64,000 bases of DNA. It comes from Amphiura filiformis (lineage: Eukaryota). Positions 4,210 to 44,744 of this stretch are shown piece by piece. The stretch is taken from positions 31,148,769 to 31,212,768 of the forward strand of contig NC_092630.1 in NCBI RefSeq assembly GCF_039555335.1, written 5' to 3'. Position 1 is the stretch's first letter; the number at the start of each line of letters is the position of its first letter. The translations under genes were made by a program, and so were the position numbers. The notes under the pieces were generated by a model that was not told the DNA's origin, made no database searches, and saw only the letters and a program-made list of their open reading frames with translations.

Positions 4210-4880
4210 GCGCCTGGATCAAACTATACTGTGCCAAGAAAGTATCCTTACACTTGGAAAAATAATCACAATTTCAAAACTGAACCAAATTGGAATAAAT
4301 TTGTTTTTGTAATAGATGCACGATCTAATCCTGCACATTATATGACACCACATTCAATCCAATGTGACCTCAAGAAGTAAAGTTACAAGCAATTGAATAG
4401 ATAAATGTCCAGTTTCAAAAGTGACAAACTGGCCTATACAAGGCGCAAAAAGATTCCAACAAGCGCAACAAAGAGACAACACAGTTTCTTCAATGAAGCT
4501 TTATTCAAAGCATTTTTTAAAAAGTTTTTACTTCTCTGTACTTTTCATAACTTTCATTTCATTTGTTAGTTCTTTTGTTTCAGTTTTCTTTTGTTCCTTT
4601 TGTTTTAAATTAAAGGCACGCATAAATTAGCCATTCAACACTCTCAAACCAGATGTCTAGTCCGTAGAGTTTTGAATAGGTCAGTTTGTCACTTTTAAAA
4701 CTGGACCTTCGTCTAATCAAATGCTTGTAACTTTGCTTCTTGAAGTCAAATTGGATTCAATGGGGTGTCATAATGTGCCGGATTAGATAGTGCATGTAAT
4801 GAAAAAACAAATTTATTCCAATATGGTTCAGTTTTGAAATTGTGATTATTTTTTCAAGTATAAGGATACTTTTTTGGCGG
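4210..4880. mobile_element. Foldback/MITE with ~200-bp inverted arms (4225-4440 and 4680-4880) around a ~240-bp core.
   Basis: atactgtgccaagaaagtatccttacacttggaaaaataatcacaatttcaaaactgaacc.. is the reverse complement of ..ggttcagttttgaaattgtgattattttttcaagtataaggatac. Confidence 0.7.
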
Positions 4881-5689
4881 AGTATATCAGTTTGTGAACA
4901 CACCTGCAACCCAGCTCAATAATTCTGTTATTATATTGCTTAATGTATTTGTCATCCTGATTTAATTTCGACATCTTGCCAGATTTTGTCCTGACCTTAT
5001 TGTTCTTGTATTCTTGTATTGCTGGTATTTTTGTATTTAGCATTTGCTGAATAAAGGTTGATATTATAGCCACTGACTACTACAGACCAATCGCAACCAA
5101 TCAAAGTCCCCGTGTTTTGTATGCTGTAAATTCTCACATATTCATGCGGGGCGATTGTTCCATCGTGCCATGTCTCGCAATCATGCCATCGTTGCGTGCC
5201 TTCACGTATATTACTTTCCGTGTCTTTGCGAAGACCGTAAAAATATGCGGTACGTGCATATCAATTTCGCCTGTCGCATTTAATGGAACAATCTGCCCTC
5301 ATTATCGGGTGATGCTGAGACTTTGACTGGTTGCATCTCCAAGAAAGATCTTAAAAGACTCCAGAAACTGCAAAACAAGTCAGCAACCACGATCTGCTCA
5401 CATTACTCCACTTCTTGATCAACTGCACTGGCTCCCTGTCTCAGAAAGAATTACATTCAAAACTCTTCTCTATGTTTTTAAATCACTTAACGGGCTCTGT
5501 CCTCAGTACATTGATGCGTTCCTAAAAATAAGATAGCGGCCGGACTCTATGCGTACTCGTTCATCATCCTGTATCACATTGGAAATTCCATCATCCAGAA
5601 AACAAGCTGGAGACAGAACTTTTTCCATTGCTGCTGCTCAATCTTGGAATAGGCTTCATGTCACAATCATAAATGAACAATTTTTGGGA

Positions 5690-8600
5690 CGCGGAATTGT
5701 GCAGTACCGCGTGCGGTACTGCACACTTCCGTTCATGCGGAACTGCACATCCCGACCTGCATTCCCACATGCGGGAATGCATGTCGGGATGTGCAAGTAC
5801 CATATCTTGTACTGCAACATTTTGGTGCATTTCCGCTGGGGATGTGCAATATTTTTGGTGTTTTTCCGCATGGGGATGTGCAATATTTTCGGTGTATTTC
5901 AGCGTGGGGAACTGCAATATTTTGGTGCATTTCCGCTGGGGATGTGCAATATTTTTGGTGTTTTTCCGCATGGGGATGTGCAATATTTTTGGTGTATTTC
6001 CGGGATGTGCAATATTTTTGGTGTTTTTCCGCATGGGGATGTGCAATATTTTTGGTGTATTTCCGCCGGGAGGTGCAATATTTTTGGTGCATTTCCGTTA
6101 GGGGAACTGCAACATTTTTGGTGTTTTTCCGCATGGGGATGTGCAATATTTTTGGTGTATTTCCGCCAGGGATGTGCAATATTTTGGTGTTTTTCCGCCA
6201 GGATGTGCAATATTTTGGTGCATTTCCGTTGGGGATGTGCAATATTTTTGGTGCATTTCCGTTAGGGGATGTGCAATATTTTTGGTGCATTTCCGTTAGG
6301 GGAACTGCAACATTTTTGGTGTTTTTCCCGCATGGGGATGTGCAATTTTTTTGGTGTATTTCCGCCAGGGGATGTGCAATATTTTTGGTGTTTTTCCACG
6401 TGGGGACTGCAATATTTTTGGTGCATTTCCGCCAGGGGATGTGCAATATTTTTGGTGTTTTTTCCGCATGGGGATGTGCAATATTTTTGGTGTATTTCGG
6501 CGTGGGGAACTGCAATATTTTTGGTGCATTTCCGCTAGGGGATTTGCAATATTTAAATTATATTAAATTACTATCCTCCGTAAATTGATTGATAATCGAT
6601 CCACTTGAGAAATTCTCCGTTGGAACTTTAATAGAAAGTGGTCACAATGTCAAGTTGAATATATAATAGTCATCATTAAAGAGGCGTGTGAAATTGATTT
6701 TAATAAAATTAATTTTATACAATAAAGTTTGAGAATATTTGCAGTAAGTTATCAAAAATGTTTTTGAATATTCACCTCGTAAAGTATTAAAGCGCGCCGC
6801 GGCGCCGCCATAGCTTAATTCCATGATCTTGATCCTATTTTTATCGATATACATCGATTACTTATCGGATTAAGTATTGGACACAATAGATGAAGTATTT
6901 GATTGACAAGGTTACCCCTGCGTCCCCTAGCCGCTTGTCTATTAATGTGTGCATATTATAATTGATACCATTAGGCCTATATAATTATGAGAGCTTTAAT
7001 GAGGGGTTATAGTTTTTAGTCTGGTATGTCTGCCTATGCATGTTATGTTTCCATTTGTAAATTCATGTTTAAATGTGCTAGTGTGCGATGCATAATTCTT
7101 CTTTGCCCTGTATATTATATAAAGAATAACGATTAAGCATCATTTAATAATTTGAAATGTTTGTAATGTTTCCATGTTCCGGTGTATGATTTGTTTAATA
7201 TAGCTTTTACTATATCATGATATCGCATGTAAAGCTGCACCAAATATATTGCAGTTCCCCATGCGGACATGCGAACAAAAAACAGCTTTTGCCGTAAGCG
7301 TAGATCCAGGGGGATGAGGGGCTAAGGCTAAACCCCCTAATATTTTGCCAGAGTTCCATACAATCCCCCCCCCAATTTTGACGCCTGTACGACCCCTGTT
7401 AGGTTTATCTTAATTTAGCTATTTTAGATCCGAGACGAAAATACCTATTTCGTCTCAGTTTTAGATAGGTTTAGATGTCCTTTTCATGAATAAAATGCAC
7501 ACAATGTCAAGTTTATTACAATGGTCACTAAATAGATTCATCACAATAGCCACTTATCATTAAGCGACGTGCGATAATATTTTTAATATAATAAAATACT
7601 ATAGACTTTAAAGTTTATAACACTTTCTTTTAATTACAGCAAATGAAGCAAAACTCACAATAGGCTAATAGTCAAAGTAAAACGATAGTAATATTAAAGA
7701 AATTTATATAATTTTATGCATGTGATAATATTTTCTATGCCGCAGGGCCTACAAATAAAAAACAAAACAAATAAAACCAAAAACAAACAACAACAACTAC
7801 AACAACAAAAACCTTTTCGCCGCCGCTTTGACACGCTGAACTGTAGGGCATACAACTGCGTCTTGCATTCTCTCCCGGATTCTCTCATGAGGACATGCGA
7901 AAAAACATGTTCACCCCACATGCAGGGCTGCACGAAATTTCCGCACGCGGACATTCGAACAAAAACCATTCATTATGCAGAACTACACCAAAAATGTTGC
8001 AGTACCCCATGCGGAAATACACCAAAAATATTGCAGTTCCCCATGCGGAAAATACACCAAAAATATTGCACATCCCCTAACGGAAATGCACCAAAAATAT
8101 TGCAGTTCCCCATGCGGAAAAACACCAAAAATATTGCACATCCCCATGCGGATAAACACCAAAAATATTGCACATCCCCTAACGGAAATGCACCAAAAAT
8201 ATTGCAGTTCCCCATGCGGAAAAAACCCAAAATATTGCACATACCCTAACGGAAATGCACCAAAATAATGCACCAAAAATATTGCACATCCCCATGCGGA
8301 TAAACACCAAAAATATTGCACATCCCCTAAAGGAAATGCACCAAAAATATTGCAGTTCCCCATGCGGAAAAAAACCCAAAAATATTGCACATCCCCATGC
8401 GGATAAACAACAAAAATATTGTAGATCCCCTAACGGATAAACACCAAAAATATTGCACATCCCCTAACAGAAATGCACCAAAAATATTGCAGTTCCCCAT
8501 GCGGAAAAAAAACCCAAAAATATTGCACATACCCTAACGGAAATGCACCAAAAAATGCACCAAAAATATTGCACATCCCCATTGCACATCCCCTAACGGA

Positions 8601-9010
8601 AATGCACCAAAAATATTGCAGTTCCCCATGCGGAAAAAAACCAAAAATATTGCACATGCCCTAACGGAAATGCACCAAAAATATTGCACATCCCCATGCG
8701 GATAAACAACAAAAATATTGTAGATCCCCTAACGGAAATGCACCAAAAATATTGCACATCCCCATGCGGATAAACACCAAAAATATTGCACATCCCGCAT
8801 GCGGAAATGCACCAAAAATATTGCAGTTCCCATGCGGGACTGCACATCCCGACCGCCATCACCCCCATGCGGTACTGCACATCCCGACCTGCATCACCGC
8901 ATGCGGGGAATGCACGTCGGGATGTGCAGTCCCGCATGCGGAAGTGCGTGACGGAAGGTGCAGTTCCGCATGCGGGACTGTGAGCGGAAGTGTGCAGTAC
9001 CGCACGCGGT
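5690..9010. mobile_element. Large foldback (TU-like) element. The left arm (about 5790-6560) and right arm (about 7900-8870) are inverted tandem arrays of a ~31-bp unit (ggggatgtgcaatatttttggtgtatttccgc..). The outer inverted flanks are GC-richer (5690-5800 and 8810-9010). The central spacer is about 1.3 kb.
   Basis: About 24 tandem units per arm in opposite orientation. The outer flanks gcagtaccgcgtgcggtactgcaca.. and ..tgtgcagtaccgcacgcggtactac are reverse complements. The long ORFs here are repeat artefacts. Confidence 0.8.
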
Positions 9011-9440
9011 ACTACACAGATAGCAGTTGCTTTTAATACCTGCAGAAATGCTCAAAACATAAACAGTTTCAAAACAGCTCTCAAATCTCTTTGTACTTCT
9101 CATGATACAAAGAGTCATGTCACCATTGTTATATTTAATTATTGCTTAATGTTTATATATTTGATCTTTTGTGTTTTGCTTACCAGCACTTTGAAACTTT
9201 ATTGAAAAGGCGCTTTATAAATGTTGTAGTATATGTATGTATGTATATGTTGCGATTGGTCTGTTATCTTTTTTGTCCATGATTACAACATAGATGAAGC
9301 ATACACAATAACAAACCATTATTTCACATAATGTTCTGGAGTTTATTAAAATATAAATCACCTGTTCTGCACATATAAACAATATAATGAATATATTTCA
9401 ATATAATAAACTATTTTTAACAGTTTCATATCTAATGTCA

Positions 9441-9530
9441 AGTAGTAGTCAAGTTAGCTCAATCGATAAGGCGTTTGACTATGATGCGAGAGGTTGCGGG
9501 TTTGAACCCCAATCTGCTGCTTCAACATAA
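9441..9530 (+). ncRNA. tRNA-derived SINE head. It is not a canonical tRNA. A second copy is at 31085-31160.
   Basis: gtcaagttagctcaatcgataaggcgtttgactatgatgcgagaggttgcgggtttgaacccc has D-arm and T-arm-like boxes but no proper anticodon stem or acceptor pairing. It is nearly identical to 31085-31150. Confidence 0.55.
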
Positions 9531-21277: not shown

Positions 21278-21599
21278 CTGTTAGAAAAGATAGAAAATAA
21301 TGGACATTTTCAAGTATAGGTGATCAAACCCCATCCATCTTATATCTACCAGATTCACTGAGTATAGCCACCACTTGTACATGGTTCAAATTCTTAAACA
21401 CTTGAGAAAGTTCCTGCAATCTTTTTGGTTCTTACCTGTGTGATATTACATGATATAACACAGTTCAGTGCATGTGAGTCGAAGTGAAACATGTACGGAC
21501 TATTTGAACCAATCAGAGGCATAGCAACAACGGGACTGATCAATTCTAAACCCTAGGTAATTCCTTGTAAAATGTAGGATTTAATTTATTAAAATTCTG

Positions 21600-29617: not shown

Positions 29618-31084
29618 CTACAAATAGTGTTGTTAACATAAGAACAAAGTATTCCTGATCAAATATCACAATATTCATACAGCTGTGTATTGAAAGTAAT
29701 TTCATTTTAAACTCTGAAAACGGTCAGATATTGAAAAGCAATAAATGTGCAAGCATTTTATTTTTTTTCACAAAACTTCAGAGCCAGGAAGGTTAATACA
29801 AACTGATGTGAAGCCAATGACAACATAAAGTAACCTCAATAATCATTCAATTAATAATAATAATAAACACGTTTTTAGGGCGCATATAATACCACAAGGA
29901 AACTCAATGCGCTAACAGAAAAGTTAAAAGCAGCAAAAAAATATACAAATGCTACGAAACGTTATTTCAAACACATTAAAAATCTTAAGGTACATGACAA
30001 AATATCATATACACATTATACATCTTAAGGTACAACTCAGGAAAAAGCAAAATGGCAAAACCAAAAAATGTATGCATGATGCACATAGCAAAGACCTGGC
30101 AATAATCAGACAATATTATTTTGCAAACAGAAACTTGAACTGCAGGAGAGTGTTAGCCGAACCAACGCTAGCTGGAAGAGCATTCTAAAGTTTTGGAGCT
30201 GTGGCAGAAAAGGATCTTTGACCATAAGAACTAGTCTTTACACTGCGTGGTGGATCAAGGAGGTCTAATGAAGAAGACCGTAAAATTCTGCGCGGCACAT
30301 CTTTGGTTATGAGATTCGCGAGATACACTGGAGCTGTTCCATGAAAGCACTTGTGTCAGAAGCAGCTTGAATTCAATGCGTTTGGCGACGGGCAGCCAAT
30401 GAAGCTCATTCAGGATGGCTTGTACTCACATCAAATATTACACTCTTGTTTCTTACCTGCACTGCAGTGTTATGTGGACATCTGTATCTCACTACACGGG
30501 TCTTGTCTCTGGGCTGTGCAAAGTAAGAACAATCAAATCAGGCAAACAGTCTGTCATATAGGCACAAAATGAAGTCTACAAACCCTACATTAAACAATAC
30601 ATCCCTAGGTGGTACATTGGTCAGGTGAACAACCTTGTTCCAAACAATGAAAGGCGCAAGACCAGATGAGGTCCGTGAATATGCAAATCACAAAGTGACT
30701 CCAGAGATCTTTAATAGGGTCTAAAATTCAGTTTGCGAGTCTCGGATAAGGTTTCCGCAATTGTCTTATGTATTTTTCTTTAAAAATGTTTATAAGGAAT
30801 GAGGAATAATTATTTGAAATATGTATGAAGTGATTGTAGTATTTGTTTTCCCACTTGCATATCATAGATGTCCACCGTGGGCTTGTGCCATTGGCGCATT
30901 TATGTGCTGTGACCAAGGAGTGGCATTTGTCTGTAGGTGCATTTATGCTGCACATTAATGTGCAATGAGTGAAGGAAGAGTTAAATAGCTGATTTGGCGC
31001 AATTTTCTGGAAAAAAAAAGGTCTTCAAAAAATATGATGTACACATACACTCCTGGGCATTCTTTTAGTAACTGTTGTAGCAGT

Positions 31085-31160
31085 CAAGTTAGCTCAATCG
31101 ATAAGGTGTTTGACTATGGTGCGAGAGGTTGCGGGTTCAAACCCTGGCGGTGCCTAGTAC
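31085..31160 (+). ncRNA. Second copy of the tRNA-derived SINE head. It lies in the MVP intron between exons 14 and 15.
   Basis: gcagtcaagttagctcaatcgataaggtgtttgactatggtgcgagaggttgcgggttcaaaccctggcg. Confidence 0.55.
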
Positions 31161-32039: not shown

Positions 32040-33200
32040 CAGATCCCCAATCTCTCTTCCAAGTACCTTGTACCTTGTACCTTGTACCTTGTAGATATCA
32101 CTCCCGAAGAGTCCACCAGGGACTATACTGGAAGTTGACGAGAGTGGTCCGGTGGTCTAACGGGGGCTGTGAAGTTGGTGGTCTTGGTCTTGGATGGAAG
32201 TCTTGAAGGTGGCGTGAGGTGGGCATGTCAACTGAAGATTGAGGAAGGCGTTCCAAAGGGAAATGGCTTCGGGGAAAAAAGACTGGATGGAGGGTGTGGA
32301 GGTGTGGTGTTGCACTTGAATTGCTTGTCGTGGCTTCGTCTGGATCTGGAGGCTTTCTTCTTGGTGTATAAGTCGGCGCCGAGGTCGATGTCCTGGTTGA
32401 TGATTTTATGAAGGGTAGTTAGTCGGAGCGTCTGGCGTCTGGTTTCGATGAGGTCCCATTTAAGGTCGGTGAGCATTTTTGTGACACTTGATTTTTCGCC
32501 TAAAGTCGCTGCACACAAAGCGAGCTGCTCTTCGTTGGACTTTCTGAAGAATTTGTTTATTTTCTTCGTACCAGGGTTCCAAGCAGCGGAAGCATACTCC
32601 AAGTGTGGTTGAACAATGGTTTGGTACAGGTTTTCTTTAACAGTTTTGGAACAATGATGAAAGTTTCTCTGAACAAAGTTTTCTTCCAGGGTTTCACCCA
32701 TCATAGAATACTTCGCAGAACCTGGTTGTCTTTTCCTGGACACCCTCATTACTTTGCATTTGGATGCGTTAAATCTCATGCCCCAGTCTTTGGACCAATT
32801 AACAAGACGTGTGAGGTCGGACTGAAGAGAACTTTCGTCTGCTTGCGAATTTATGGCTTTATATATAATGCAGTCGTCTGCAAACAGTCTTGTAGTCGAT
32901 TCAACAGCATCGGCGATGTCATTTATAAACAAAATGAAAAGGTGCGGGCCCAACACTGTGCCTTGGGGCACACCGCTCAGGACTGGTTTCCAGGCTGAAG
33001 TACAACCGTTGACCCTTACCCTCTGGAGACGGTCGGTGAGAAAAGCTTCAATCCACCGGGAAGTTTTATTCCTAATACCATAAAACTTAAGCTTCTGCAG
33101 TAAGCGCTGGTGGGGCACGACATCAAACGCCTTACTGAAGTCTAAGATGGCGATGTCAGTCGTCTGATTATTATTATGGTTTGTAGTCAGGTCATGAAGA
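32040..33200 (-). mobile_element. CR1/L2-like non-LTR retrotransposon fragment (RT plus 3' UTR), ending in a (CCTTGTA)n microsatellite at 32055-32098. It lies in the MVP intron between exons 13 and 14.
   Basis: RT ORF plus a short tandem-repeat 3' tail typical of the CR1 clade. The 5' end is abruptly truncated near 33200. Confidence 0.75.
32228..33118 (-). CDS. Reverse-transcriptase ORF (296 aa) of a 5'-truncated CR1/L2-like non-LTR retrotransposon. RT similarity continues upstream to about 33200 (..LDFSKAFDVVPHQRLL).
   Basis: ORF contains SGVPQGTVLGPHLFILFINDI .. LFADDCIIYK .. (RT domains 4-6, FADD catalytic motif). Upstream out-of-ORF translation reads RKKLIATLHDLTTNHNNNQTTDIAILDFSKAFDVVPH. 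Confidence 0.85.
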   Translation of the reverse strand: MPHQRLLQKLKFYGIRNKTSRWIEAFLTDRLQRVRVNGCTSAWKPVLSGVPQGTVLGPHLFILFINDIADAVESTTRLFADDCIIYKAINSQADESSLQSDLTRLVNWSKDWGMRFNASKCKVMRVSRKRQPGSAKYSMMGETLEENFVQRNFHHCSKTVKENLYQTIVQPHLEYASAAWNPGTKKINKFFRKSNEEQLALCAATLGEKSSVTKMLTDLKWDLIETRRQTLRLTTLHKIINQDIDLGADLYTKKKASRSRRSHDKQFKCNTTPPHPPSSLFSPKPFPFGTPSSIFS

Positions 33201-33635: not shown

Positions 33636-33878
33636 AATACCGTAAAACCTCGTCTACAAGCATATAGTGTGTTTTTGATGAAAGCTAAATTGAAATGAGA
33701 CAGCCGTAAATATGCCAATACAATAGATTGGTCTTACAATAGTACTTGTTTGTATATGTTTGTATCGGTAATTAATTTGCTCAAACTCAATAATATTATA
33801 ATTTAGTTGATGGATGGCGTGTGAATTAATTTAGCTTTCATCAAAAGCACTCTATATGCTTATAGACGAGGTTTTACG
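33636..33878. mobile_element. MITE with TIR TACCGTAAAACC(T/C)CGTCTA(C/T)AAGCATATAGTG. A second copy lies at 41338-41560. This copy starts 38 bp from the acceptor of MVP exon 13.
   Basis: taccgtaaaacctcgtctacaagcatatagtgtg .. cactctatatgcttatagacgaggttttacggta. Confidence 0.7.
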
Positions 33879-36415: not shown

Positions 36416-36795
36416 ACAGATTTCGTGTTAAGGGGGTACTACACCCCTGCCCAATTTTGTCCCTATTTTTGCATTTTTCTCAAAAATTATAGCGCATTGG
36501 TGACAGGTAAGATATGTATATTATAGGGGCAAGGACTACAACTACTGTACTGGAAACTTTATTTCAGCACAGACAACAGTTGTGGAGTTACAGTCAAAAA
36601 TGAGGGAAAACCAATATTTGATCAATAAATCAATAAATACTTGCCTTGAGTTGCTGAATTTTTAGTGCAGTAGTTGTAGTCCTTGCCCCTATAATATACA
36701 TATCTTACTTGTCACCAATGCGCTATAATTTTTAAGAAAAATGCAAAAATAGGCACAAAATTGGTCAGGGGTGTAGTACCCCCTTAAAGAGTGGA
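36416..36795. mobile_element. MITE with long (~145 bp) inverted arms and TIR GGGGGTACTACACCCCTG.
   Basis: gggggtactacacccctgcccaattttgtccctatttttgcattttt..tatagcgcattggtgacaggtaagatatgtatattataggggcaaggactacaactactg is the reverse complement of 36650-36795. Confidence 0.8.
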
Positions 36796-41337: not shown

Positions 41338-41560
41338 ATACCGTAAAACCCCGTCTACAAGCATATAATGTGCTTCTGATGAAAGCTACATTAATCCAGT
41401 CGCCATTATGGAGTTTGAGCAAATAAATTACGGATCCAAGAATATACAAACAAGTATTATTTTAAGACCGATCTATTGTATTGGTATATTAATGCTTGCT
41501 TCGAATTAATTAAGCTTTTATAAAAAACACTATATATGCTTGTAGACGGGGTTTTACGGT
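41338..41560. mobile_element. Second copy of the TACCGTAAAAC-TIR MITE, in the MVP intron between exons 7 and 8.
   Basis: accgtaaaaccccgtctacaagcatataatgtgc .. cactatatatgcttgtagacggggttttacggt. Confidence 0.7.
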
Positions 41561-41831
41561 ACTCTATTTCACTACCTCCAGTCAGCAGCACTTGCTTTGA
41601 AGTTCAGCATGTTCTACATTAGCTTAGCGTTACTTGGTGTGTGTACATACTTTTTACATGCGCGATCAAAGTGGCGCAAGAAATAACGCTAAGCTAATGC
41701 AGCACACGCAGACCTTCAAAGCTTGTGCAAAAAAGAGGTAGTGAAATAGGTATACTAGTTTCAGGAAATGGGAGTATATAAACCAGAGTCATGCAGATCT
41801 TAACAAACCTAATATGGACTGGGCTTCTTAC

Positions 41832-43211: not shown

Positions 43212-44054
43212 TCATTCCAGTCGGTCGTCGTTCTGTGGAAGTAGCTGAATTTGTGCACATCCTTCCTGATCAGCTCCCTTCTTCCTGCTCATTCTTCTGT
43301 GAGTTCTAGTAAACCAAGGAAGATTTCTTCTGTTGGATGACATTTTGGTTGGAACGTTCTCCTCCATCACTTGTTTGATCTTTCTATCAAACATGTCCCA
43401 TTTTTCTTGGACAGTGAGGTTGGCTTCATTTCTGAAGGAGTCACCAAAGATCTTCATGTCTTGCTTTATCTTCTCCACATCAGCCTTGTGCTTCAGGTAG
43501 ATCTTGTGGGGAGGTTTCTTCTTTACTTGAGCAAATCCATTTAGCACCGATAGCACAGCCTCATGATCACTTAAGCCTGGTATGACTTCCACATTCTTGA
43601 TGAAGGAAGAGTTGTTGGTGAGAACCAAATCAAGTATGCTGTTGAGTCTGGTTGGTTTGTCAACCACCTGTTCTAAGCCATGCTCTTGTACAGTCTGAAG
43701 CAGCCTCTCTGCAGTTGTTTTGGATGCCGGATGGTTTACAATCACCGTCTTGTTTACCCAGTCTATGTTTGGTTGATTTAAGTCACCCTGTATGACTACG
43801 TCCTTGAGTTTGGAGTGGTTGTTGATGTTTTCTAACATCACCGCTAGGTCTTCGACCGTTTCTATATCATCATGCTTGGGCTTATACAATGTTCCAAACA
43901 GTATAGGTCTTCTCCCCTGGATATCAAGTTGACACCAAAGCATCTCACTGTTTGTTTCCAGTTCTTGTCTACGGTTGACTGGTAGGTCCTTCCTGTATGC
44001 AAAAAAGACACCACCATGTCTATCCGTCCCACTAGATCTATCTCTCCTGTGCAA
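43212..44054 (-). CDS. APE-type endonuclease domain ORF (280 aa) of a non-LTR retrotransposon.
   Basis: Motifs ..LWCQLDIQGRRPILFGTLYKP .. VIQGDLNQPNIDW .. TRLNSILDLVLTN .. IPGLSDHEAV, the typical EEP/APE layout of ORF2 N-termini. Confidence 0.8.
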   Translation of the reverse strand: MHRRDRSSGTDRHGGVFFAYRKDLPVNRRQELETNSEMLWCQLDIQGRRPILFGTLYKPKHDDIETVEDLAVMLENINNHSKLKDVVIQGDLNQPNIDWVNKTVIVNHPASKTTAERLLQTVQEHGLEQVVDKPTRLNSILDLVLTNNSSFIKNVEVIPGLSDHEAVLSVLNGFAQVKKKPPHKIYLKHKADVEKIKQDMKIFGDSFRNEANLTVQEKWDMFDRKIKQVMEENVPTKMSSNRRNLPWFTRTHRRMSRKKGADQEGCAQIQLLPQNDDRLE

Positions 44055-44138
44055 AGCGTATCCATCTGGCAGAAATTCAGCATTTTCTATTGAAGAGTCT
44101 AGCCATGTCTCTGTCCCATGGATGAAGTCGGTTTTAGT

Positions 44139-44744
44139 TCATGAATCATAGCCTCCCATTCCGCACGCTTGTTCATGATGCTCTGGAAATTTATGTTCAG
44201 AGTAGTAAACAACATCTCTCTCCAAGTTCTTCTTGCTTGCGGGCTTCCTTTTATTTTTGGTCCTGTCAGTTTTGTCTCTGTCGTTGTCCCCACTCTTGTT
44301 GTCCTTGTCATTGTCTTCAGTGTCGTCATCATTGTCAGTAGTCTCTCCTTCAGTTGAAGAAAAATACGAGTTGGTGAAGCAAGTTATCTCACAGTGCGGA
44401 CACAACCAGTTGAAAGATTTATTTGTGAGGGTATCATAAGTATCATTATCCATTCCAGCACAGGCACAGTGTGTCCATGCCCCGCATGCATCACACTCCA
44501 GGCCCTCCTCTCCAAATTTTACGTTGTCAACACACATGGTACAGGGAGATGTACACTCTGGACAAGACCACTGTTTTCCATTTCTGATTTGGTTGAAATC
44601 ACCTGTTGATACACCACAGCAGCTGGCATGGTAATCTTGGCTGCACTCACCACATGTAATCCATCTACGGTTATGACTTCCCTGTCTGCCACACACATTA
44701 CACTCCCTTGCTAGCTGGTTTTCCTGATTGATGGGGATTACCAT
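44139..44744 (-). CDS. Cysteine-rich ORF (201 aa) with two PHD-type zinc fingers, followed by an acidic Asp/Thr-rich tail. Putative ORF1-like protein of the same retroelement.
   Basis: C4HC3 spacing: CNVCGRQ..WITCGECSQDYHASCCGV..WSCPEC and CTMCVDN..LECDACGAWTHCACAGMD..NWLCPHC. It lies immediately upstream of the EN ORF on the same strand. Confidence 0.65.
   Translation of the reverse strand: MVIPINQENQLARECNVCGRQGSHNRRWITCGECSQDYHASCCGVSTGDFNQIRNGKQWSCPECTSPCTMCVDNVKFGEEGLECDACGAWTHCACAGMDNDTYDTLTNKSFNWLCPHCEITCFTNSYFSSTEGETTDNDDDTEDNDKDNKSGDNDRDKTDRTKNKRKPASKKNLERDVVYYSEHKFPEHHEQACGMGGYDS

What the first reader, a model, noticed from the sequence alone, without database searches (positions are those of the whole stretch)
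5690..9010. 3.3-kb foldback element with tandem-repeat arms (TU-like architecture)
The two arms are inverted arrays of about 24 copies of a 31-bp unit, capped by GC-rich inverted outer domains around a 1.3-kb middle segment. This is the hallmark of foldback transposons. Arms like these make cruciform-prone, hard-to-assemble DNA, and elements of this architecture are classically associated with echinoderms.
Basis: partly seen in the sequence, partly recalled or inferred. Interest (0 to 1): 0.5.

Follow-up and report, generated by a model that had tools for sequence, protein, structure and literature searches.

The report
Foldback-type repeat element in a brittle star
This is a real 3.3-kb non-coding element with two long inverted arms of 34-bp tandem repeats, most likely an old, immobile foldback-type DNA transposon copy in the brittle star Amphiura filiformis, so it is an ordinary new example of a known kind.

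Summary
The structure is real. Window 5698-9018 (3321 bp; 12 more element-like bases at 5686-5697) has two arms in opposite orientation. The left arm has 22 tandem units (5812-6554) and the right about 25 (7975-8837). The unit is 34 bp, not 31. GC-rich outer domains (54-63% GC against 37% for the window) cap the arms and end in a 34-nt terminal inverted repeat matching 33/34. The 1.42-kb middle is AT-rich and non-coding. A 99%-identical LINE protein places the window in Amphiura filiformis, an echinoderm.

My best reading (about 0.6) is a non-autonomous foldback-type class II element. It interrupts an L2-like repeat tail. About 50 copies of one core motif (CCGCATG[C/G]GG..TGCA) fill both the outer domains and the arrays. 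They look like reiterated transposase-binding sites, as shown for Galileo.

Mobility is not demonstrated. I found no target-site duplication, no second copy in any searchable data and no transposase, and the right terminus looks truncated. Each arm has been homogenised on its own, and the outer domains differ by about 9%, so the copy is old and not an assembly palindrome. TU membership is not supported. This is a new member of a known kind, of low to moderate interest.

The parts
5402..5685 (+). Left flank: 3' coding tail of an L2-like retroposon family (...LHWLPV...RTRSSS...GDRTFSIAAAQSWNRLHVTIINEQFLG), cut off just before the conserved SFK motif
   Evidence: Translation and tblastn. It is 67% identical to family member P0007, which runs uninterrupted through ...WNKLPNSIRAARDFNSFKTVLKTHL.
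5686..5697 (+). Twelve GC-rich, element-like bases (GGGACGCGGAAT) outside the symmetric inverted repeat. Bases 5692-5697 complete a 40-nt palindrome (5692-5731). There is no partner at the right end.
   Evidence: Sequence. Hairpin -19.2 kcal/mol, z = -5.6. Similar to the internal GCACGCGGTACT.
5698..5811 (+). Left outer (flanking) domain, 114 bp, 54% GC, CpG o/e 0.95. It is a chain of three local palindromes: 5698-5725 (12-bp stem), a 6-bp stem, and 5744-5795 (22-bp stem). It starts with the terminal inverted repeat TGTGCAGTACCGCGTGCGGTACTGCACACTTCCG.
   Evidence: (MFE -43.8, z = -10.6).
5812..6554 (+). Left arm array: 22 units of about 34 bp (consensus GTGCAATATTTTTGGTG[C/T][A/T]TTTCCGC[A/C/T][T/A/G]GGGGAT), with a 3-unit (100-102 bp) higher-order pattern
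   Evidence: TRF score 932-998; unit list; core hits all on +.
6555..7880 (.). Middle segment, 34% GC, non-coding. It contains a diverged internal direct duplication (6624-6760 and 7509-7645, 65% identity).
   Evidence: No ORF above 91 aa and no Pfam match; self-BLAST; repeats.
7226..7284 (-). Stray arm unit plus a degenerate unit inside the middle, in right-arm orientation. It duplicates the inner boundary of the right arm (7919-7968, 71% over 59 nt).
7881..7974 (-). Degenerate inner units of the right arm (GGACATGCGAA(C)AAAAACA type). The left arm has no counterpart.
   Evidence: Direct-repeat families D1/D2; alignment.
7975..8837 (-). Right arm array: about 25 units of 34 bp in the opposite orientation, with a 2-unit (68 bp) and about 197-bp higher-order pattern. 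The variant GTTTATCCGCATGGGGAT is private to this arm.
   Evidence: TRF; unit list; core hits all on -; variant counts.
8838..9018 (-). Right outer (flanking) domain, 181 bp (63% GC over 8861-9018), a chain of palindromes. It carries a 39-nt segment (8946-8984) absent from the left. It ends in the terminal inverted repeat ...CGGAAGTGTGCAGTACCGCACGCGGTACTACACA, and its terminal palindrome stops 6 nt short, so this end is probably truncated.
   Evidence: (MFE -52.5, z = -8.1; the terminal hairpin alone gives only z = -1.1).
9019..9262 (+). Right flank: 3' end of the same L2-like family (IAVAFNTCRNAQNINSFKTALKSL... down to a TATG-type microsatellite tail). Its start overlaps in family coordinates with the end of the left flank.

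Best explanation
Window 5686/5698-9018 is one copy of a non-autonomous foldback-type class II (DNA) transposable element of the brittle star Amphiura filiformis. It sits inside an L2-like retroposon tail.

Each arm has a GC-rich terminal domain made of nested palindromes, followed by a 34-bp tandem array. Both parts are built on one core motif, CCGCATG(C/G)GG..(A/G)(C/T)TGCA. The arrays therefore probably arose by reiteration of a terminal-domain module.

Inferred mechanism, by analogy with Galileo, Tm1 and FB:
- A transposase supplied in trans recognises the terminal sequence and the roughly 50 reiterated core sites.
- It synapses the two arms and moves the element by cut-and-paste.
- The arms then evolve quickly by slippage and unequal exchange.

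This particular copy is old and probably dead. The outer domains differ by about 9%, which is roughly 25 Myr if the arms were identical at insertion. Each arm has been homogenised on its own. The right terminus appears truncated, and no target-site duplication survives.

Shown here: the anatomy, the inverted orientation, the shared core, the lack of coding capacity, the foreignness to the host repeat and the independent evolution of the arms. Inferred only: mobility, the role of the core as a binding site, the superfamily and the age.
For: - Inverted arrays with all core hits + in the left arm and - in the right; 319 inverted pairs; period 34.
- Sharp boundaries at 5698 and 9018. The terminal 34 nt match 33/34, which is better conserved than the arrays at about 83%.
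- The core motif GCATG[CG]GG occurs 10 (+) and 18 (-) times in the element and 0/1 times in the other 60 kb. The broader core pattern occurs 17/22 against 0/1.
- The outer domains fold into chains of hairpins, z = -8 to -10.6.
- The middle has no ORF above 91 aa and no Pfam match. The long array ORFs have no homologues among 5.8 billion proteins.
- Both flanks belong to one L2-like tail family. Its intact members (P0007-P0012) run straight through the interrupted site with a conserved 14-residue WN...FK spacing. The 3.3-kb block is therefore an insertion relative to that family.
- The middle is not host-family sequence.
- Unequal repeat numbers between arms, asymmetric termini and about 93% arm identity are typical of foldback-like families (Tm1, PMC3169594; Tetris, PMC4079207).
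- Tandem repeats in long terminal inverted repeats carry extra transposase-binding sites in Galileo (PMC3688188).
- The A. filiformis genome is 59% repeats with much DNA-transposon activity (PMC11310086).
Against: - No target-site duplication of 4-13 bp appears at any boundary within 5640-5712 / 9000-9075 beyond what 54,000 trials give by chance.
- Only one copy could be seen. There is none elsewhere in the window and none in the metagenome, prokaryote-genome or viral collections. The source genome itself could not be searched.
- No transposase or autonomous relative was identified, so the superfamily is unknown.
- The two flanks overlap in family coordinates by about 45-63 nt, at only about 56% identity (my hand count, not a tool result). 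This is not the signature of a simple cut-and-paste insertion into one host copy.
Confidence: 0.6

Rival explanations
1. This is a local structure, not a mobile element. A 34-bp minisatellite with its GC-rich edge was duplicated in inverted orientation on the spot, for example by replication template switching or hairpin-primed repair. Both halves then drifted apart.
For: - Only a single copy is seen, with no target-site duplication.
- The arms are not mirror images unit by unit. In-register identity of 0.83 equals out-of-register identity of 0.81-0.85.
- The middle contains a stray unit and an internal duplication, signs of local rearrangement.
- The flanks are oddly overlapping pieces of one repeat family.
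Against: - The block, including the whole array and the palindromic caps, is foreign to the L2-like tail in which it lies. Intact family members have nothing there.
- Both outer edges fall at the same sequence position, with a 33/34 terminal match. That is expected of transposon ends and not of a random duplication breakpoint.
- The core motif is absent from the surrounding 60 kb, so no local source array is visible.
Confidence: 0.15
2. Two separate insertions lie head to head. Each arm would be its own copy of a one-armed element carrying a terminal GC-rich domain and a 34-bp array, and the 'middle' would be whatever lay between them.
For: - The arms differ in length, outer-domain content and unit variants. 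Each unit's nearest relative lies in its own arm in 34 cases, in the other arm in 3, with 6 ties.
- Only the right arm has an inner degenerate domain.
Against: - The sequence between the arms is not the continuation of the interrupted L2-like tail. That continuation appears only beyond 9018.
- By eye, I saw no direct repeat bracketing either arm separately (sequence); I ran no scan for this.
- Two independent hits of a rare element 1.4 kb apart in exactly opposed orientation are unlikely when no third copy occurs in 64 kb.
Confidence: 0.1
3. Assembly artefact: a palindromic chimera from nanopore reads, or a collapsed or misjoined satellite.
For: - The published A. filiformis assembly is built from R9.4.1 nanopore reads with Flye and Racon (PMC11310086).
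- Some unit-length differences are T-run length differences, which could be basecalling errors.
Against: - A read-through palindrome would give near-identical mirror arms around a point. Here the arms have 22 and about 25 units, private variants and a 39-nt indel in the cap. They show no in-register excess identity, and a unique 1.4-kb asymmetric middle lies between them.
- The flanks are ordinary unique sequence.
Confidence: 0.05
4. The element is a bona fide member of the sea-urchin TU family, or of the Drosophila FB/Mutator-Phantom lineage, rather than merely similar in architecture.
For: - The host is an echinoderm.
- It has the modular arm / middle / arm layout with a heterogeneous non-coding middle.
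Against: - The unit is 34 bp, not about 15 bp (TU, from memory) or 10/20/31 bp (FB).
- The tandem array lies inside a palindromic cap rather than forming the outermost domain.
- No 8-bp or 9-bp target-site duplication is present.
- Foldback architecture is known to be polyphyletic (PMC3169594; PMC4079207).
- Sequence comparison with TU could not be done.
Confidence: 0.05

Closest known systems
Tetris (Drosophila virilis foldback transposon; Dias et al. 2014, PMC4079207)
   Same: The domain order is the same: a terminal flanking domain, then a tandem-repeat domain of variable copy number, then an inner domain, around a non-coding middle. The tandem repeat shares a motif with the terminal domain, which suggests the array arose by duplicating part of the terminus. 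Only non-autonomous copies are known.
   Different: Tetris repeats are about 220 bp and its complete copies have 8-10-bp target-site duplications. Its host is an insect, and several copies plus satellite-like arrays are documented. Here the unit is 34 bp, no target-site duplication is present and only one copy was seen.
Drosophila FB (Foldback) elements (Potter 1980/1982; cited in PMC4079207 and PMC3169594)
   Same: The long inverted arms consist almost entirely of short tandem repeats. Arm length varies, there is strong snap-back potential, and the middle is often non-coding.
   Different: From memory, FB units are 10/20/31 bp, the target-site duplication is 9 bp, and FB is linked to a Mutator-like transposase (NOF/Phantom).
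TU elements of the sea urchin Strongylocentrotus purpuratus (Liebermann et al. 1983; Hoffman-Liebermann et al. 1985; from memory, papers not retrievable)
   Same: Echinoderm host; a modular foldback design of long inverted repeats with outer and inner domains plus heterogeneous middle segments.
   Different: As I recall, the TU outer domains are about 15-bp tandem repeats, the inner domains are non-repetitive, and insertions make 8-bp duplications. Here the order is a palindromic cap followed by a 34-bp array, with no target-site duplication. The host belongs to a different echinoderm class (Ophiuroidea). Sequence relatedness was not tested.
Tm1 (Meloidogyne Mutator/Foldback family; Gross & Williamson 2011, PMC3169594)
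   Same: It has composite terminal inverted repeats with a short asymmetric terminal motif followed by a variable, arm-specific number of short tandem repeats. The arms of one element average about 93% identity. Most copies are non-coding.
   Different: Tm1 has 14-bp units, 9-bp target-site duplications in 45 of 53 copies, and an identified Phantom/MULE transposase. None of these was found here.
Galileo (Drosophila buzzatii, P superfamily; Marzo et al. 2013, PMC3688188)
   Same: Its long, internally repetitive terminal inverted repeats have tandem repeats that carry additional transposase-binding sites. This is the only experimentally supported mechanism for such arms. Galileo is also known to cause rearrangements by ectopic recombination, leaving chimeric flanks.
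   Different: Galileo encodes a THAP-domain P-like transposase and, from memory, makes 7-bp duplications. No protein or binding data exist for the element here.

Membership tests
Foldback-type (FB-like) transposons, structural class | Very long terminal inverted repeats relative to element length | tested here: met
   The arms are 857 bp (5698-6554) and 1044 bp (7975-9018) of a 3321-bp element. The snap-back construct forms 739 inter-arm pairs.
Foldback-type (FB-like) transposons, structural class | Arms built of short tandem repeats, with repeat number differing between arms | tested here: met
   22 against about 25 units of 34 bp.
Foldback-type (FB-like) transposons, structural class | Middle domain variable and usually non-coding in non-autonomous copies | tested here: met
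   No ORF above 91 aa in 6555-7974 and no Pfam match.
Foldback-type (FB-like) transposons, structural class | Target-site duplication flanking the termini (7-10 bp in described families) | tested here: not met
   No direct repeat beyond chance at any boundary combination. The right terminus is probably truncated, which could explain the loss.
Foldback-type (FB-like) transposons, structural class | Dispersed multi-copy family sharing the same termini | not testable with these tools
   There is no second copy in the 64-kb window. Public collection scans gave only chance hits. A. filiformis genomic DNA could not be fetched.
Foldback-type (FB-like) transposons, structural class | Autonomous relative encoding a transposase between the same arms | not testable with these tools
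   None is present in the window; its ORFs of 110 aa or more include only LINE-related proteins.
TU elements (S. purpuratus) | Outer domain of the inverted repeat made of about 15-bp tandem repeats, inner domain non-repetitive (from memory) | tested here: not met
   The outermost 114-181 bp are nested palindromes. The tandem array has a 34-bp period and lies internal to them.
TU elements (S. purpuratus) | 8-bp target-site duplication (from memory) | tested here: not met
TU elements (S. purpuratus) | Sequence homology to the TU inverted repeats | not testable with these tools
   No TU sequences are available, and the papers are not held.
Drosophila FB / Mutator-Phantom superfamily | 9-bp target-site duplication and a MULE/Phantom transposase in autonomous copies; 10/20/31-bp repeat series in FB | tested here: not met
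   Period 34; no 9-bp target-site duplication; no transposase.
Galileo / P superfamily | 7-bp target-site duplication; THAP-transposase binding sites in the arms | tested here: inconclusive
   No 7-bp target-site duplication. A reiterated core motif exists, but no protein is known that could be tested against it.

The most novel reading that the evidence does not exclude
This copy may be the first sighting of an undescribed ophiuroid foldback family. Its arms would be arrays of a palindromic core (CCGCATGCGG), and its ends would be hairpin-forming palindromes. The oddly overlapping, non-duplicated flanks would then be a scar of break-and-repair or ectopic recombination at such elements. If so, the family could have contributed to the exceptional chromosomal reshuffling reported for A. 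filiformis.
Probability: 0.15. Interest if true: 0.55.

Novelty: new member of a known kind. Interest (0 to 1): 0.3.

Why it matters
Long, internally repetitive inverted repeats form hairpins and cruciforms, stall replication and promote ectopic recombination. Foldback-like elements such as Galileo have generated natural inversions in Drosophila.

A. filiformis is reported as the most rearranged echinoderm genome, with a DNA-transposon burst (PMC11310086). A census of this family against synteny breakpoints would be a concrete, cheap test of whether such elements took part.

The arm divergence here (about 9%) is older than that burst (about 2% divergence), so this copy is not part of it. On its own, the locus is an ordinary, decayed repeat. 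It is a useful curated seed for repeat libraries, which tend to fragment such elements into 'satellite' plus 'unknown'.

Tried and rejected
- **Coding capacity.** The arrays give ORFs up to 265 aa on both strands only because the unit lacks stop codons. Two searches of 5.8 billion proteins found nothing. The middle ORFs have no Pfam match.
- **RNA genes.** There are no tRNAs in the window. The only Rfam hit is a sub-threshold mir-504 match (25.8 bits against a gathering score of 57, E = 0.05) on the 5744-5795 palindrome. I take it as a generic hairpin.
- **Other copies.** The 16-mer scan of metagenome contigs gave only single chance hits, and none carries the longer 24-nt unit pattern. The prokaryote-genome and viral scans for the unit were empty. 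The 22-nt terminal palindrome hit two bacterial MAGs once each; I read these as chance GC-rich palindromes and did not inspect those loci.
- **More A. filiformis DNA.** The attempt through the look-up of encoding contigs failed because the protein is not on record.
- **TU papers.** They could not be retrieved by DOI or by a guessed PMC id.
- **Target-site duplication.** Two scans were run, the second over 54,000 boundary and length combinations. The best p-values, near 2e-4, are what chance gives. A tempting degenerate repeat (ACAATCATAAATGAACAA / ACCTGCAGAAATGCTCAA, 12/18) lies 20-30 nt outside the inverted repeat and is not significant.
- **Flank-to-flank DNA alignment.** Not significant, z about 1.6.
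- **MAFFT alignment of the outer domains.** It was misled by the internal periodicity, so I used the piecewise alignment.
- **Full-length fold.** It timed out and was replaced by an arms-plus-loop construct.
- **Shared 10-mer.** GGTACTACAC occurs in both the right terminus and the TTAA-flanked MITE at 36434. I judged it chance, since about one such match is expected in 64 kb and the orientation relative to the ends is opposite.
Full report
**Observation**

- Tandem Repeats Finder reports an array at 5813-6554 (period 34, 22.3 copies, score 932; also periods 66 and 100). It reports a second set at 7975-8837 (periods 34, 68, 102, 197).
- The 16-mer core TGCAATATTTTTGGTG (up to 2 mismatches) occurs 44 times in the window against 0.29 expected. 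All 18 hits at 5845-6526 are on the + strand and all 24 hits at 7986-8825 on the - strand. There is one stray - copy at 7238 and one unrelated 2-mismatch hit at 21415.
- The repeat finder lists 319 inverted pairs, up to 176 nt at 84% complementarity.
- The arms are therefore inverted arrays. Cutting them into units gives 22 on the left and about 25 on the right, each 29-36 bp with a mode of 34.
- The unit is 34 bp, not 31. The value 31 is that of the Drosophila FB repeat.

**Ends and caps**

- The symmetric inverted repeat begins at 5698 and ends at 9018. The terminal 34 nt, TGTG(C/T)AGTACCGCGTGCGGTACTGCACACTTCCG, match 33/34.
- The caps are GC-rich: 54% for 5698-5811 and 63% for 8861-9018, against 37% for the window. 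Their CpG o/e is about 1.0, against 0.63 for the window.
- The caps are unequal, 114 bp against 181 bp. The right one has a 39-nt segment (8946-8984) that the left lacks.
- Each cap is a chain of local palindromes. The left cap folds at -43.8 kcal/mol (z = -10.6) and the right at -52.5 (z = -8.1).
- The left terminus is itself a 40-nt palindrome (5692-5731) and needs six of the 12 element-like bases outside the symmetric repeat (5686-5697, GGGACGCGGAAT). The right terminal palindrome stops 6 nt short at 9018. I infer that the right end is truncated by at least 6-12 nt.

**One core motif throughout**

- The caps and the arrays share a core, CCGCATG(C/G)GG followed by ..TGCA.
- GCATG[CG]GG occurs 10 (+) and 18 (-) times inside the element, and 0 and 1 times in the remaining 60 kb. 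A broader pattern gives 17/22 against 0/1.
- In the caps the core is the perfect palindrome CCGCATGCGG (4 copies). In the arrays it is CCGCATGGGGA.
- The arrays thus look like an inward reiteration of a terminal module, as proposed for Tetris, where the 220-bp repeat shares 37 bp with the flanking domain (PMC4079207).

**Arms compared**

- A global alignment of the left arm against the reverse complement of the right arm is collinear overall.
- At unit level there is no in-register signal. Mean identity on the diagonal is 0.833, and off-diagonals give 0.813-0.851.
- Each unit's nearest relative lies in its own arm in 34 cases, in the other arm in 3, with 6 ties.
- The variants are arm-specific. 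GTTTATCCGCA occurs only on the right and GTATTTCCGCC only on the left. The higher-order periods also differ, about 100 bp on the left and 68/197 bp on the right.
- The arms have therefore been reshaped independently by slippage or unequal exchange. This argues against a recent inverted duplication and against a read-through palindrome artefact.
- The non-array cap sequence differs by 8.9% (10 mismatches in 112 aligned sites). With the published A. filiformis rate of 1.885e-9 per site per year (PMC11310086), that is about 25 Myr if the arms were identical at insertion. This is a rough figure from few, CpG-rich sites.
- As a single strand, the arms joined by a 30-nt loop fold at -829.5 kcal/mol with 739 inter-arm pairs. 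The control with the right arm reversed but not complemented gives -337.2. The snap-back and cruciform potential is real.

**Middle**

- The middle (6555-7974) is 34% GC. It has no ORF above 91 aa and no Pfam match.
- It is not a clean unique segment. A stray unit plus a degenerate unit at 7226-7284 duplicates the inner edge of the right arm (7919-7968). Degenerate units occupy 7881-7974. Segments 6624-6760 and 7509-7645 are a diverged direct duplication (65% over 144 nt).
- The left arm has no inner degenerate domain.
- The long ORFs in the arrays (up to 265 aa) have no homologues and are a by-product of a stop-poor repeat.

**Organism and context**

- A LINE endonuclease ORF at 43212-44054 is 99% identical to a protein of Amphiura filiformis on a 64-Mb scaffold. 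The next hits are other A. filiformis proteins and one from S. purpuratus.
- The window GC of 37.4% fits the published 36.67%.
- The host is thus a brittle star, an echinoderm. Its 1.57-Gb genome is 59% repeats, carries a DNA-transposon burst at about 2% divergence, and is the most rearranged echinoderm karyotype known. It was assembled from R9.4.1 nanopore reads (PMC11310086).

**Flanks**

- The left flank (5402-5685) is the coding tail of an L2-like retroposon family...LHWLPV...RTRSSS..LEIPSSRKQAGDRTFSIAAAQSWNRLHVTIINEQFLG. It is 67% identical to P0007.
- Intact family members run on as WN + 14 residues + FK..LKTHL.
- The right flank (9019-9262) supplies ...RNAQNINSFKTALKSL and the 3' end with a TATG-type microsatellite. 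The 3.3-kb block is therefore an insertion relative to the family, and the middle segment is not host-family sequence.
- The join is not clean. The right flank begins earlier in family coordinates (IAVAFNTCRNAQ...) than the point where the left flank stops. About 45-63 nt are thus represented on both sides, at only about 56% identity by my hand count of the codon alignment. The DNA alignment is not significant (z about 1.6).
- No direct repeat of 4-13 bp stands out at any boundary among 54,000 combinations.
- There are three possibilities. The flanks may be two different partial copies of the family. There may have been an old internal duplication. Or the right terminus and its neighbourhood may have been remodelled by deletion, repair or ectopic exchange. 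I cannot decide among these and record the point as unexplained (note 3).

**Search for relatives**

- The unit and the termini occur nowhere else in the window.
- The metagenome scan returned only single chance 16-mer hits, none with the 24-nt unit pattern.
- The prokaryote-genome and viral scans were empty for the unit. For the terminal palindrome they gave two isolated hits in bacterial MAGs, which I read as chance and did not inspect.
- A. filiformis DNA beyond the window could not be obtained. Copy number, consensus ends and an autonomous partner therefore remain untested.

**Interpretation**

The anatomy matches the structural class of foldback-type transposons.
- The arms are long inverted repeats made of tandem repeats, with arm-specific repeat numbers.
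- There is a distinct terminal domain and a non-coding middle.
- Arm identity is around 90% (Tetris PMC4079207, Tm1 PMC3169594).

For Galileo, the tandem repeats in such arms were shown to hold extra transposase-binding sites (PMC3688188). The roughly 50 reiterated core motifs here are the obvious candidates for the same role. That is inference, not evidence.

Foldback architecture is polyphyletic: Mutator/Phantom for FB and Tm1, P for Galileo. The superfamily therefore cannot be named without a target-site duplication or a transposase.

Membership in the sea-urchin TU family is not supported. The unit size and domain order differ from what I recall of TU, no 8-bp duplication is present, and no sequence comparison was possible.

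My best reading, with confidence about 0.6, is an old, non-autonomous and probably immobilised copy of an undescribed foldback-type family.

**Rivals**

- A locally generated inverted minisatellite (about 0.15). This is disfavoured by the sharp, matching termini and by the foreignness of the block to the host repeat.
- Two head-to-head insertions (about 0.10). This is disfavoured because the sequence between the arms is not the host continuation.
- An assembly artefact (about 0.05). This is disfavoured by the asymmetric arms and the unique middle.

**Verdict**

This is a new member of a known kind, of low to moderate interest (0.3). The one lead worth following is a genome-wide census of the family against the rearrangement breakpoints of this unusually reshuffled genome.

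Noticed in passing
window 36434-36787: A roughly 354-bp MITE. Its arms (36428-36556 / 36659-36787) are 95% complementary with a 102-nt loop. It is flanked by TTAA on both sides (TTAA|GGGGGTACTACACC...GGTGTAGTACCCCC|TTAA), a piggyBac- or Kolobok-type target-site duplication, and looks young.
   Followed up: partly
window 4218-4893: Another long-inverted-repeat, non-coding element of about 675 bp. Its arms (4225-4441 / 4672-4886) are 87% complementary. It lies only 800 bp left of the foldback and shares no sequence with it.
   Followed up: partly
window 43212-44744 (- strand): A LINE fragment with a PHD-finger ORF (44139-44744) upstream of an endonuclease ORF (43212-44054, Exo_endo_phos_2). It is 99% identical to an annotated Amphiura filiformis protein (P0001) and 65% identical to an S. 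purpuratus PHD-domain protein. This hit identified the organism.
   Followed up: yes
window 32228-33118 (- strand): A 296-aa ORF with a reverse-transcriptase domain (RVT_1, E = 1.5e-19), a second non-LTR retrotransposon fragment.
   Followed up: partly
window 33638-33794 and 41405-41561: Two copies of a repeat of about 157 nt in inverted orientation, 7.6 kb apart, 83% complementary. They may be the ends of a larger element or two separate insertions.
   Followed up: no
window 5402-5685 and 9019-9262; also 30100-30430 (- strand): Tails of an L2-like retroposon family (LHWLPV...FS.AAP..WN.LP..IR......FK..LKT.L). The two pieces flanking the foldback overlap in family coordinates by about 45-63 nt at low identity. 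This is neither a target-site duplication nor a clean single interrupted copy, and it remains unexplained.
   Followed up: partly
window 5738-5802 (- strand): A sub-threshold Rfam match to mir-504 (25.8 bits against a gathering score of 57, E = 0.05) on the 52-nt palindrome of the left outer domain. It is almost certainly just a generic hairpin.
   Followed up: yes
window 9442-9509 and 31077-31144: A 68-nt stretch, 93% identical, shared between the region just right of the foldback's flank and a distant site. It is a short dispersed repeat that I did not identify.
   Followed up: no
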